NCBI GenBank assembly: GCA_964016885.1
Contig: OZ024740.1
Span: forward strand, 166,532,001 to 166,596,000
Direction of reading: 5' to 3'
Length of the DNA stretch: 64,000 bases
From: Eledone cirrhosa
Lineage: Eukaryota
Shown: in pieces, positions 7,964 through 27,545 of the stretch
Position numbering within the stretch: the stretch's first letter is position 1
Layout of the letters: every line of letters begins with the position of its first letter
Notes under the pieces: model-generated
Seen by the model: the letters and a program-made list of their open reading frames with translations, nothing else
Told to the model about the DNA's origin: nothing
The model's database searches: none
Translations under genes and position numbers: made by a program

Positions 7964-8427
7964 TCCAGCTCTGCGCGCCTGACTTCTGCATGAACCCAAC
8001 CACCTAGCTGCTTTCTACTGCATATTGTACATTGAGCACATGCCTTTACGCTTTAGCTTATAACTACTTCACCAATCTATTCTCTCCTATCTCCTCTCCT
8101 ATCTCAATCTCTCTCTTTAAGATTGGTTACTCTTGAACTGTGTGAATATATATATATATATATATATATATATATAGTAATAATAATAAAATTGAAGACT
8201 AAAATCCAAAGAGGGCTCGGTAAGGAAAATATATATCAAATATATAAGAACCGTAGAGCAAATATTTATTAAAATAACAGATTAATGTTTAAGCAAAGAA
8301 TCGCTGCTTTCACCCTTAACGGGATCTTCTGAAACTAACAAAGTCAATCTGTAAACGCAGAACTAGATATTTCAAAAAACGGTGCAACCGGAGGAAGACA
8401 GGAAGACGATACTTTGGTTCGTGGTAG

Positions 8428-9069
8428 GTGGCCACACCATTAGCTAAGATCTTTCTTTCCCTTATTACGAAGCATTTTCCCCCCACACATAAATATAGTA
8501 AAATGTTTAATAGAAATACTATTAAAATTTCTTCTACGACTCCTAACCTTGCACATAACATCACAGATTCAAATTTAGCTAAACTACCTAGCCGTAGGAA
8601 CACGTGCAACCCTGTAGTTAGTACTAACTGTAATTGTAGGAATAGGGCTGATTGCCCCCTATCCGGGAAATGCCTCTCTAGTAACATTGTCTACAAATGT
8701 AAGGTTGTAACACCCACGTCCCGTAGGGCCTACATAGGGTTAACCGCCAATAGTTTCAAGCAGCGTCTTTACATGCATACCCATTCTTTTCGTTACCCTT
8801 TAAGAAGGAATATGACGTCACTTTCAGCTTATATCTGGAGTCTAAAAGACAACCACACCCAATATAAGTTACACTGGGAGATACTAGCTAGGGCTAGATC
8901 GTATAACGGAAATAAAAGACCATGTGACCTCTGCGCCGCTGAGGCCCTGGAAATACTCTACGCCACAGACCACATCTTAAACAAAAAATCTGAGGCAATT
9001 TCGGCTTGTAAACATAAATTGCACAAAACTTTCCTGTATTACAGCCCCACGTTATACCCTAACGGATAG
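8428..9069 (+). pseudogene. PLE C-terminal GIY-YIG endonuclease fragment (Hydra-like CxCx5CP linker)
   Basis: KHFPPTHKYSKMFNRN, CNCRNRADCPLSGKC, IVYKCKV...YIGLT..FKQR...H, CDLC..E, LNKKSE. Homologous to 53477-53995. Confidence 0.88.
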
Positions 9070-9997
9070 CACGATCTATACGTGGATATTTTACGTCTTG
9101 ATGTGGGAGCTAAGTATATGTTTTGTTTATTCCTTTACTTATTTGCATAGGTAAGTATATATTACCCGTATGTTTTGTGAAGGTATGCATACCTTCTCGT
9201 ACGTATATTTGACTGTTATGGCGTATAATTTTTACATATTCTGGTATTTAGGGTTTGGCTATGTGTATACGGGAGTTTTGCGTCCGCGTGAGTATGCAGG
9301 TTCGTACGTATGGTGGGTGTGTGTATATGTGTACTTCTTGTTTTAGTTGACTTACGTCTCCGAACATTCGTGTATTTATATGTAGTTATGCGTGTGCGCT
9401 TGTTATATACGTATTTATTTACTTATATACGTTTATATAATTATTTATTTATTTGTACATAAGCATACGCACACACACATATTTATATGTGCGTGGTTTT
9501 GTATACCTATGGTAAGGTTTTCCGTATGCTTGTGTATGTACGTATCTGTTTGCGTGTATGTATTTATTTGTTTCTATTACTTCTGTATTGTATTTATTTA
9601 CTTTGTTCTTAACTCTGTAGCGGAGATTCATTTGGTCTCCTAGTTAGAATTTTAGTCTACGATTTCTGTTATACCATTTACGTGGTTTTGTCTTTGCGTG
9701 CTATTGTTCTCCACGCTCCACATATGACTTATTATCTTCGTTTTTTCGTTCATTGCCAGAGAACGTCTCTATGCACCACCTAAGAGAACATTAGTCTACG
9801 ACCTCTTTTATACCATAAACGTGGTTTTGTCTTTGCGCGTAATTGTTTTTCACCGCTCCTATTAATGACGTATTATTCGTTTTTTCCCGTTCTTTGCCAG
9901 CGAACGTTTCCACGAACCAAAGTATCGTCTTCCTGTCTTCCTCCGGTTGCACCGTTTTTTGAAATATCTAGTTCTGCGTTTACAGATTGACTTTGTT

Positions 9998-10048
9998 AGT
10001 TTCAGAAGATCCCGTTAAGGGTGAAAGCAGCGATTCTTTGCTTAAACT
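9998..10048 (+). ncRNA. Type I hammerhead with variant core CAGAAGA (family G). Other copies: 8286-8336(-), 10283-10333(-), 20963-21013(-), 21320-21370(+), 27324-27374(+)
   Basis: AGTTT-CAGAAGA-TCCC-GTTAA-GGGT-GAAA-GCA-gcgattctt-TGC-TT-AAACT. Stems I, II and III all pair. Confidence 0.7.
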
Positions 10049-23573: not shown

Positions 23574-23630
23574 TTCTATTATATATATTTCAAAGGTACC
23601 AAAATTTTGGTACGCTATCATCAGATGAAA
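23574..23630 (-). ncRNA. Hammerhead-like motif
   Basis: CTGATGA-tagc-GTACCAA-aatt-TTGGTAC-cttt-GAAA-TATATATA. Stem I is weak. Confidence 0.5.
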
Positions 23631-26471
23631 TACGAAGTGTGTTTTATAAATGTTGATATAACCTAGGAAAATATACTTTAACGGTTTAAGTTTTCAAGTG
23701 TTGAATTGAATTCCCAACAAATTGAATATCCCTTCTGCTTATATATATATATATATATATATATATATATATATATATATATATATATAAAACGAAGGAA
23801 ATGTGGTAAGGAACCAAGTGGAACATAATGCACCAAAGTACTCAATACTTAGGGTAGTAGAGTGGGTAATAGGAACGAGTAGGACCCCGACGGCTGAGCT
23901 CAAGCCGTTTCGACGGCTAATTCTTTTTAGTCCAGAATTAGCCGTCGAAACTGCTTGAGCTCAGCCGTCGGGGTCCTACTCGTTCCTACACACACACACA
24001 TATATATATATATATATAAAGAGAGAGAGAGAGAGAGAGAGAGATGTATGAAAGTGTGTGCATACGCGCATGCGTGATAGAGTGCGTGTGTTGATGCGCA
24101 CATACAATAGTGATGTCTCTAATATTGCTGGTGTGCAATAATTGACACCATTGAAAGTTTAATCCTTATTGATATATTGATTACTGTCATTTAACATTTA
24201 ACAACGCTAGCTAAGGAGATCACTGTTTAAGAGGCACTACGATCATAAATGGTGGCCTATCTTTATTTACAAATATTAGACCTCATTACGAAATAACGCC
24301 TTTCTTTTTTTGAACAATAATGTGTATATAAGGGAGGCTGTGATGCTATTACTACGCAATCCATCATTGAGCAGACTAAGGAGTATGTAACCTAATGGCT
24401 CATGCAAATATAAATGCTTACAATAAACGACAGTAAAAGAAAAAACACCGGCTTCATAATTCCTTGTAATTCGAAAAATTATTCATGTATATTTATTTTT
24501 TTGTAATTTGCAAACCGTCGATATTTACTGGCTCCCTTGGACCTTCATTCGTCCATTGCATTTACGTTGAGCAAAGTGACCAAATAGTGTTTGTAAATTC
24601 TTTAAAGAAATATTATATAATGCTTTAAAAAGACCCGTTTCCTTCAAAATATTTATATCATTGACTGGTATACACGGCAAAATACACACACACACACATA
24701 TTCGTATAATGTATGACTTCTGTGTCAAAACGAAGGTATACTATAGAAGCTGACATTTTAGCAACACCACGGCTGGGATTCCTGTATATTGTTCTTCATG
24801 TGTCATTGCATGCTTATAATCAATAGTATTCCAACCGTGACCAATCCGTATTTATCCTTCGCATTTTGTATGTAGGCGCAGGTAATGTTCAGAATCATTT
24901 TCTTTAGAATGATATTGTGAATGTTTTTTGTTTACACAAAACCTCTTCCTATTGTTAGCATTGGTGTTGTTATTTAACCCCAAGGGTATCTATTATCAAA
25001 ACTGATGAGAACTTCAGAAGGTCGACACAAGGGTAGAAATATATAAATGGCAAAGAATGATAAATAAAACAAAACAATGTAATGCTATTTACCTAGCATA
25101 TTTTAATATGATATTTTAGGGTTATGACCCACTTTTCAAATGCAAAACAAAAAAGAAACACATGATGCGCTTCTTTATTTGCAGGTTATATATTTCTGCC
25201 ACATTGTACCGGCTTCCTGAAGTTTTCATCAATTATTACATACCTCACAATGATTTATATTAAATATTCTACATTGTTAAATCCAATTTATCATGACAAT
25301 TCGCTTTTTGTTTCTGACACGGTGTATCTCTGACTAACATAATGCAGCAGCGTATGCATTCATTGATATTTGGGTATTATTTCTAGGAGATCAAGTGAAG
25401 AGGTTGAGCCTAACTCAAGCGTTAGCTCATGTGCTATTTGCAGTGTGTAAACAGAAGCAGTACCAATTTGTGCACAACAGTTAATAGAGACTGAATTTTG
25501 CGTTACCACAAACTTTCCCCAGATAATTAATCGTAGTTTATGCTTCCCTTGGTATCATTGCACACATATCAGCTAATGAGGCATCATATCCACTAGGACA
25601 GAACACATCACTATTGATCTGCATTAATGTCAATATCCATTAATATGGCTCCATTTAGTCCCAATTACATAACTACTTAGTCAATAACTAACACTCGGGT
25701 AATATCTCATTTCTGTTCAGTTTTTTAATTGAAATCGTTTATTCTAGCACTCTCTTTCCTTGTCCCTATTCCACATTTGGGATTTAGTTTTGTTTCAGTT
25801 TCTCTCTTTAGTTAGTTGTCAATCATTTATTCCGAGCTTCGATCACATCTTTAGGGAGTTTCCTACAACTGGGAATGTCGTTATCGGAATTCTTTTTTTT
25901 CTTTGTAAAAAGACTTTAATATGTTGAGTCTTACCGAGAGAAATGCCTCTATTTCTCTATAAAATACCAAGTCCATACATATAAGCACATGCGTAATCCC
26001 TCTGCACATACATACACACACTAAATACAAACATGTACAAATATGTAAAAATATGCACGCATGTTTAATTTAATATGCAATTATGTATAACTGAGATGTT
26101 GGAGGGGTTTCCAAATATGCAAAATTGCAGCATTCACTTAGTTATAGAGAATGCATGAATCATTTTTTTGTTTTACTAAATACATAAATACATGAGAAAT
26201 AGCATTTCAAGATATAAATGTACATAATTATCTTTGTACAAAGGAACACACATACACACAGACACAGAGACATACCCCCCCACCACCACACACACACATA
26301 CACACACACAAACACACACATATATATAACAAATAAAGTATGGTAAGAAACCAGGTGGACTATAACGCACCAGAATACTTCATACTTAGGGTAGTAGAGT
26401 AGGTAATAAGAAAAGCGTCAGGACCCCGACGGCTGATCGCCGGCCGTTTTTTTGACAGCAAGATTCGAACT

Positions 26472-27545
26472 GTATATTACCCGTATGTTTTGTGAAGGTA
26501 TGTATACCTTCTCGTACGTATATTTGACTGTTATAGCGTATAATTTTTACATATTCTGGTATTTAGGGTTTGGCTATGTGTATACGGGAGTTTTGCGTCC
26601 GCGTGGTGTGCATGTTCGTACGTATGGTGGGTGTGTGTATATGTGTGCTTCTTGTTTTAGTTGACTTACGTCTCCGAACATTCGTGTATTTTTATGTAGG
26701 TATGCGTGTGCGCTTGTTATATACGTATTTATTTACTTATATACGTTTATATAATTATTTATTTATTTGTACACAAGCATACACACACACACATATTTAT
26801 ATGTGCGTGGTTTTGTATACCCATGGTAAGGTTTTGCGTATGCTTGTGTATGTACGTATCTGTTTGCGTGTATGTATTTATTTGTTCCTATTACTTCTGT
26901 ATTGTATTTATTTACTTTGTTCTTAACTCTGTAGCGGAGATTCATTTGGTCTCCTAGTTAGAATTTTAGTCTACGACTTCTGCTATTCCATTTACGTGGT
27001 TTTGTCTTTGCGAGCTATTGTTCTCCACGCTCCACATATGACTTATTATCTTCGTTTTTTCGTTCATTGCCAGAGAACGTCTCTATGCACCACCTAAGAG
27101 AACATTAGTCTACGACCTCTTTTATACCATAAACGTTGTTTTGTCTTTGCGCGTAATTGTTTTTCACCGCTCCTATTAATGACGTAGTATTCGTTTTTTC
27201 CCGTTCTTTGCCAGCGAACGTTACCACGAACCAAAGTATCGTTACCACAAACCAATTCCTGTCTTCCCCCGGTTGCAACGTTTTTTGAAATATCCAGTTC
27301 TGCGTTTACAGATTGACTTTGTTAGTTTCAGAAGATCCCGTTAAGGGTGAAAGCAGCGATTCTTTGCTTAAACTTTAATCTGTTATTTTAATAAATATAT
27401 ATATATATATTTATTAAAATAACAGATTAAAGTTTAAGCAAAATAAATATTTGCTCTACGGTTCTTATATATTTGATATATATTTATCCTTATCGAGCCC
27501 TCTTTGGATTTTAGTCTTCAAATTTATTATTATTACTATATATAT
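26472..27545 (+). mobile_element. Family G PLE 3' UTR copy (matches ~9155-10070) with a local (TA)-centred fold-back at ~27362-27442
   Basis: Near-identical sequence; the spurious ORFs 9392-9643 and 26706-26957 are almost the same. Confidence 0.9.

What the first reader, a model, noticed from the sequence alone, without database searches (positions are those of the whole stretch)
8286..27374. Six-copy hammerhead family with a conserved non-canonical core CAGAAGA (U4A) and a U-U pair closing stem II
All six family G copies have CAGAAGA rather than CUGANGA, yet stems I (AGTTT/AAACT), II (CCC/GGG) and III (AGCA/TGCT) form and the triplet is CUU. The same T-NNN-loop-NNN-T stem II geometry occurs in the unrelated canonical CTGAAGA motif at ~46500. 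Because the change is fixed across independent insertions, it was in the active parent element. It may be a natural HHR core variant.
Basis: partly seen in the sequence, partly recalled or inferred. Interest (0 to 1): 0.7.

Follow-up and report, generated by a model that had tools for sequence, protein, structure and literature searches.

The report
Retrotransposon hammerhead with selected A4 core
These six repeats are end-pieces of a very abundant Penelope-like jumping gene whose hammerhead-shaped RNA has an A where known hammerhead ribozymes have a U, and because three age classes of the element kept that A, the stems and the core while loops drifted, it is likely a natural, slowed but still selected ribozyme, though cutting is untested.

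Summary
All six copies read CAGAAGA, but they come from four insertions, and one copy has broken stems I and II. They are terminal-repeat hammerheads of a young Hydra-clade Penelope-like element (3,259-bp unit, intact 709-aa ORF). A4 is family-wide: only 70 of 17,938 genomic 31-mers have T4, against 83 with T at free position 7. Most other CTGAAGA hits are fold-back junction artefacts (26 of 30). Two older subfamilies keep A4 and all stems while loops and flanks differ by 25-33%; the only core change is at free position 7. No credible A4 occurs among relatives in 78 metagenome loci or in 25 published Hydra families. The U-U closure is already known (Perreault 2011; 14 of 25 Hydra families). 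Spliced genomic copies (186) show this strand is transcribed and copied uncut. No RNA data were available, and no copy ends pile up at the cleavage site. Best reading: a selected, slow hammerhead variant (0.5); rival: a non-cutting fold kept as a protein handle (0.35). This scan noted the same family four times before elsewhere in this genome.

The parts
8174..8425 (-). Inverted terminal arm of insertion A; hammerhead copy with C3 at 8331
8426..10071 (+). 5'-truncated body of the Hydra-clade Penelope-like element (insertion A)
   Evidence: 96.7% identical to a full unit
8428..9069 (+). C-terminal 213 aa of the RT-endonuclease ORF (CxCx5C linker, YIG, CxxC, CxH)
9151..9900 (+). 750-nt GT-AG intron between ORF and hammerhead; precisely removed in 186 genomic copies
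9982..10057 (+). Type I hammerhead motif: distal stem I 9982-9990/10049-10057, bulge 9991-9997, stem I 9998-10002/10044-10048, core CAGAAGA 10003-10009, U-U 10010/10022, stem II 10011-10013/10019-10021, GAA 10023-10025, stem III 10026-10029/10039-10042, predicted cut between 10043 and 10044
   Evidence: the cut site is predicted by analogy
10259..10334 (-). Short solo end-piece (insertion B); C3 at 10328; cut just 5' of stem I
20939..21224 (-). Inverted arm of insertion C; C3 at 21008; stems I and II each carry a break
21232..21483 (+). Second arm of insertion C with long tail; C3 at 21325
26473..27539 (+). Insertion D: 3' UTR, hammerhead (C3 at 27329), short inverted piece 27407-27442 and tail

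Best explanation
The motif is the terminal-repeat type I hammerhead of a Hydra-clade Penelope-like retrotransposon with A fixed at core position 4, and it is likely a slowed but still selected self-cleaving ribozyme. Shown: parent element, position about 200 nt upstream of the ORF start, family-wide A4, and conservation of stems and core across three subfamilies. Inferred: the sense transcript is spliced and folds into the three-way junction. A4 and the CUU triplet would lower the cutting rate, so most RNA stays whole long enough to be reverse-transcribed from start points 28 or about 115 nt downstream of the cut site. A minority would be cut after 10043, possibly only when the element's protein binds. 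What the cut is for (unit-length or circular RNA, a translation-ready 5' end, turnover) is not determined.
For: Parent: 3,259-bp unit, 709-aa ORF intact in many copies, with RWR, DKT, CxCx5C, CxxC and CxH motifs as described for the Hydra clade. Fixed: T4 in 70 of 17,938, against 83 with T at position 7. Subfamily II versus young consensus: 0 of 44 stem and core positions differ, 6 of 21 loop and 21 of 84 upstream positions do (Fisher P 7e-4 and 8e-5; core alone P 0.04). Subfamily III versus young: 0 of 42 stem, 1 of 13 core (N7), 7 of 21 loop, 25 of 84 upstream; A4 in 60 of 67 hits and 11 of 11 copies found with an anchor that left the 5' core free. U4 is the most tolerant core position in print: natural U4C lowers activity in vitro but supports viroid infectivity (PMC3088659 passage), and no inactivating U4 mutant was among 46 selected phage mutants (PMC4075628 part 1 of 2). 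The hammerhead of the PAc element cuts only with protein.
Against: No cleavage data; no RNA run was listed. In a pairwise mutagenesis of another hammerhead, all single mutants of CUGA showed low activity (PMC9901934 passages). None of 40 ORF-reaching copies has its 5' end at the cut site and 23 of 40 span it; 29 of 30 spliced copies span it. Copies of elements with canonical cores also span it, so this does not discriminate. No compensatory base pairs separate the subfamily consensuses. The same core bases build the fold, so their conservation fits a structural role too. The search patterns fixed part of the motif in both old subfamilies, and I chose the long-reaching old copies myself (11 of the 50 loci L339-L388 for subfamily II; 20 copies from 57 loci for III).
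Confidence: 0.5

Rival explanations
1. The ribozyme is catalytically dead or negligible, and the hammerhead fold is kept as a binding or positioning handle for the element's protein next to the reverse-transcription start.
For: Copies end 28 nt downstream of the cut site, so an uncut RNA is the template. Hammerhead mutants did not change PAc insertion in vitro, and no RNA ends were seen at its cut site. Low activity of CUGA mutants. The family also left the clade's GUH triplet for CUU (45 of 47 relatives have GUH). T4 copies arise but no T4 subfamily expanded.
Against: The only core change between subfamilies is N7, the position free in active hammerheads (about 1 in 13 by chance). All other unpaired core bases are kept.
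Confidence: 0.35
2. The motif is a neutral relic: U4A killed it in an ancestor and it rides along because the element does not need it.
For: Naiad elements spread without canonical hammerheads (PMC8557442 passages); no covariation between subfamilies.
Against: 0 of 44 stem and core differences against 25-30% in flanks and loops.
Confidence: 0.08
3. A4 is kept because CAG serves another signal, such as a splice acceptor or transcription start.
For: TTTCAG after a T-rich tract looks like a 3' splice site; many copies end near the core.
Against: Spliced copies join the 9151 donor to the acceptor at 9900. None of the first 100 of 279 listed junction hits joins to the core. The fold-back hotspot is explained by the TTC-N-GAA quasi-palindrome whichever base sits at position 4.
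Confidence: 0.07

Closest known systems
Hydra-clade Penelope-like elements and their hammerheads (Craig et al. 2021, PMC8557442; section 11, passages, File S1 Hydra sheet and File S2 read)
   Same: RT plus C-terminal endonuclease with RWx, DKT, CxCx5C, CxxC and CxH motifs; (TA)n flanks; inverted and tandem arms; sense type I hammerhead near the 3' end; U-U next to stem II in 14 of 25 families.
   Different: All 26 Hydra rows of File S2 have CUGANGA and a GUH triplet with a short loop III; this family has A4, CUU, a 9-nt loop III, a longer unit (3.26 kb) and a 750-nt intron. Two diagnostic motifs of this family were not found in that supplement.
Natural hammerhead core variants (Perreault et al. 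2011, PMC3088659; sections 8, 9, 17 and passages read, supplements searched)
   Same: U10.1-U11.1 is described as natural and tolerated; a U4C viroid variant is weak in vitro but sufficient in vivo.
   Different: U4A is not named in the sections read. Five A4 core strings were absent from 11 supplementary files, though gapped alignments could hide them. Those variants are rare single sequences, not the consensus of a family with over 17,000 copies.
Penelope-element hammerheads (Cervera and de la Pena 2014, PMC4209133; parts 1-2 of 4 read)
   Same: Hammerhead in the terminal repeats, low activity expected, intron near the motif, a family-wide core variant (U3-A8).
   Different: Those are minimal motifs with a palindromic stem III thought to work as dimers, and their U3-A8 change is compensatory. 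This one has a full stem III and an uncompensated change.
PAc Poseidon element hammerhead (Frangione et al. 2024, PMC11167929; passages read)
   Same: Reverse transcription starts at two internal sites that define an optional tail; uncut RNA is the main template.
   Different: PAc is of another clade and its hammerhead overlaps the ORF start; here the motif lies about 200 nt upstream of the ATG and has A4.

Membership tests
Hydra-clade Penelope-like element | Single ORF, RT with C-terminal GIY-YIG-type endonuclease | tested here: met
   709-aa ORF with YRDD at 346 and YIG at 598. Pfam gave no RT or GIY-YIG hit, so this rests on motifs.
Hydra-clade Penelope-like element | RWK-like motif, DKT, CxCx5C linker, CxxC and CxH around the conserved E and N | tested here: met
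   RWR 37, DKT 115, CNCRNRADC 564, CDLC 662, CKH 690; definition
Hydra-clade Penelope-like element | (TA)n insertion, tandem and inverted terminal repeats | tested here: met
Hydra-clade Penelope-like element | Placement in the Hydra clade by RT phylogeny with named references | not tested
   No tree built; named reference proteins were not available as sequences.
Hydra-clade Penelope-like element | Canonical hammerhead core (CUGANGA) | tested here: not met
   CAGANGA in all three subfamilies
Type I hammerhead ribozyme | Three stems around the core in type I order | tested here: met
   All pairs are possible in the consensus; the fold is not the predicted minimum.
Type I hammerhead ribozyme | C3, G5, A6, G8, A9, G12, A13, A14, A15.1-U16.1, H17 | tested here: met
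Type I hammerhead ribozyme | U4 | tested here: not met
   A in over 99% of young copies
Type I hammerhead ribozyme | 10.1-11.1 pair (usually G-C; U-U a known variant) | tested here: met
   U-U as
Type I hammerhead ribozyme | Match to an Rfam hammerhead model | tested here: inconclusive
   No hammerhead hit for the A4 copy or for a natural T4 copy at E up to 10
Type I hammerhead ribozyme | Site-specific self-cleavage | not testable with these tools
   No RNA run listed; needs a bench assay

The most novel reading that the evidence does not exclude
[quoted passage not shown] It would be a family-wide natural U4A ribozyme that standard CUGANGA searches miss.
Probability: 0.25. Interest if true: 0.7.

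Novelty: new variant of a known kind. Interest (0 to 1): 0.5.

Why it matters
Why Penelope-like elements carry hammerheads is an open question. Here an element with intact ORFs and tens of thousands of copies kept a non-canonical core under apparent selection through three waves of expansion. It is a natural test case: if it cuts, the core consensus used in genome searches is too narrow; if it does not, the fold has a job other than cutting. Natural T4 copies and a sister family with a canonical core in the same window (55885, minus strand) give ready controls.

Tried and rejected
A U4 ancestor or sister subfamily: 1,223 CTGANGA hits looked like one, but 26 of the 30 fetched are fold-back junctions and none has native stem I. 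A hint of an older U4 lineage proved to be subfamily III with A4; its 3 T4 copies among the 30 fetched sit at inversion junctions. A4 as splice acceptor: no such junction among 100 listed hits. Pile-up of 5' ends at the cut site: none in 40 copies, and no symmetric junction there among the 100 listed rows (about 50 junctions). RNA evidence: no RNA holder listed; contigs of five runs gave only variant spectra, with no A-to-T row at 10004 above 1%. Rfam: the whole-window scan was swamped by microsatellite hits and targeted scans were uninformative. Literature: searches for U4A, U4C/U4G and CAGAUGA with hammerhead found no U4A report. Lunse et al. 2017 on small Penelope hammerhead variants and Nelson and Uhlenbeck 2008 were not held, and Ruffner 1990 was not read, so a published U4A variant or rate may exist. 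The eLife mutagenesis supplements were listed but not read, and bioRxiv supplements were closed. P0001 as a query returned only the same family.
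Full report
Observation. Six copies of one motif lie between 8277 and 27383, all with CAGAAGA, U-U around a CCC/GGG stem II, a four-pair stem III and a CUU triplet. Mapping to a full element shows four insertions, two with inverted arms. Three copies are identical, 21008 has breaks in stems I and II, 8331 has lost one stem I pair and 10328 is cut 5' of stem I. Stem I extends by nine further pairs beyond a 7-nt bulge (pair probabilities 0.72-1.0). Proximal stem I is weak in the energy model (0.05-0.08), and the hammerhead fold is 2.8 kcal/mol above the minimum with either A4 or U4.

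Parent element. The copy at 10003 follows an endonuclease-like frame (8428-9069) on the same strand. The genome (G000, 3.0 Gb) holds many 97-99% identical frames, several open for 713 codons. Full copies show a 3,259-bp unit with the motif 198 nt upstream of the ATG of a 709-aa ORF. RWR, DKT, CxCx5C, CxxC and CxH motifs match the Hydra-clade description in PMC8557442 (section 11). Pfam did not recognise the protein and no tree was built. A 45% identical sister family in the window (53537-55616) has a canonical CTGAGGA hammerhead.

Is A4 the consensus? A 31-mer with positions 4 and 7 free has 17,938 matches. T4 accounts for 70, and T at the free position 7 for 83, so T4 is at background. Dropping the stem I anchor gives 1,223 CTGANGA hits, but 26 of 30 fetched have an inverted arm directly upstream: a fold-back junction centred on position 4, of which 562 are exact. 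These would mimic revertants in a careless count.

Is it selected? Two older subfamilies were found. Subfamily II (7 copies 6-11% from their consensus, against a median 1.9% for 218 copies, mostly young) differs from the young consensus at 0 of 31 stem, 0 of 13 core, 6 of 21 loop and 21 of 84 upstream positions; the 11 stem positions fixed by the search anchor were excluded. Position 4 was A in 26 of 27 copies matched in those loci, a few of them young copies lying nearby. Subfamily III differs at 0 of 42 stem, 1 of 13 core, 7 of 21 loop, 25 of 84 upstream and 4 of 13 downstream positions, and the core change is N7. Here the search pattern and my copy filter fixed the 5' stems and part of the core, so the unbiased part is stem III, the cut site and the 3' strand of stem I, plus 11 of 11 A4 copies from an anchor that left the 5' core free. 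A4 was in 60 of 67 hits (my count from the listing). No compensatory pairs were seen and no U4 ancestor was found.

Relatives. Of 78 metagenome loci encoding related proteins, 57 have a hammerhead hit; the best hit has U4 in 55. One has C4 beside a canonical motif in the same locus, and one is a weak A4-like hit inside the ORF. U-U flanks stem II in 24 of 47 distinct motifs, and 45 of 47 have GUH. In File S2 of PMC8557442 all 26 Hydra rows have CUGANGA, and 14 of 25 families have U-U (my count). PMC3088659 describes U10.1-U11.1 as natural. So U-U is ordinary; A4 and CUU are this family's departures. Other hammerhead families in the own-genome loci scanned had U4, apart from one C4 copy and one weak hit.

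Transcription. A GT-AG intron at 9151-9900 is precisely removed in 186 genomic copies, which shows that the strand carrying the motif is transcribed, spliced and reverse-transcribed. Of 30 such copies, 29 span the whole motif uncut. None of 40 ORF-reaching copies starts at the cut site. Elements with canonical cores also run past their cut site, so this cannot tell slow from dead. No RNA run was listed.

Mechanism. Published data point both ways. U4C is weak in vitro but sufficient in vivo, and U4 was not hit among 46 inactivating phage mutants. But CUGA single mutants were low in a deep scan, and PAc inserts without hammerhead cleavage while its ribozyme needs protein. That CUU is a poor triplet is recalled knowledge, not from a call. 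The conservation pattern argues against a neutral relic. I put a slow, selected ribozyme at 0.5 and a non-cutting handle at 0.35.

Earlier notes. Four earlier notes of this scan describe the same family elsewhere in this genome. One mentioned an older sister family, which I tested here. The excerpts shown did not mention the N7 difference, the spliced copies or the junction artefact.

Verdict. A real, family-wide, apparently selected U4A variant of a known kind of motif in a known kind of element; activity untested; not found in print, with two key papers unavailable. Interest 0.5.

Noticed in passing
window 9151-9900 (+): 750-nt spliceosomal-type intron of the element; 186 genomic copies have it precisely removed, direct genomic evidence that spliced Penelope RNA is retrotransposed. 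A minor class of junctions carries four extra bases.
   Followed up: partly
G000-wide, e.g. L239-L268; centre equals window 10004: Hotspot of fold-back inversion junctions at the TTC-N-GAA quasi-palindrome in the core (562 exact), which creates false CTGAAGA cores.
   Followed up: partly
window 46490-46540 (-) and about 10560-10690 (-): Canonical CTGAAGA hammerhead with U-U, palindromic stem III and also a CUU triplet; a decayed homologue lies beside a broken GIY-YIG Penelope-like element at 11058-14319 (-).
   Followed up: partly
window 53537-55616 (-), hammerheads at 55885 and 51596 (-): Sister Hydra-type element (45% identical RT) with a canonical core and long stem II, inside a local duplication of about 4.3 kb.
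   Followed up: partly
L269-L308, and L111-L130: 5' ends of ORF-reaching copies cluster 166-174 nt downstream of C3 (5 of 40, more), just upstream of the ATG; possibly a transcription start.
   Followed up: no
L079, L056/L057, L053, L054: Insertions in which both or all arms carry T4, so a T4 template or an early copying error was propagated within one insertion.
   Followed up: no
window 11831-13170: Frames that look like a mariner-type transposase (label recalled, not tested) inserted into the broken Penelope-like element.
   Followed up: no
window 15398-16097 and 58226-58750: Long perfect or near-perfect palindromes centred on TA repeats.
   Followed up: no
window 9646-9919: Two diverged tandem repeats of about 135 nt inside the intron of the element.
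   Followed up: no
own-genome loci L001-L130: At least ten other hammerhead families flank these insertions, including U3-A8 cores (L075, L121, L038, L045).
   Followed up: no
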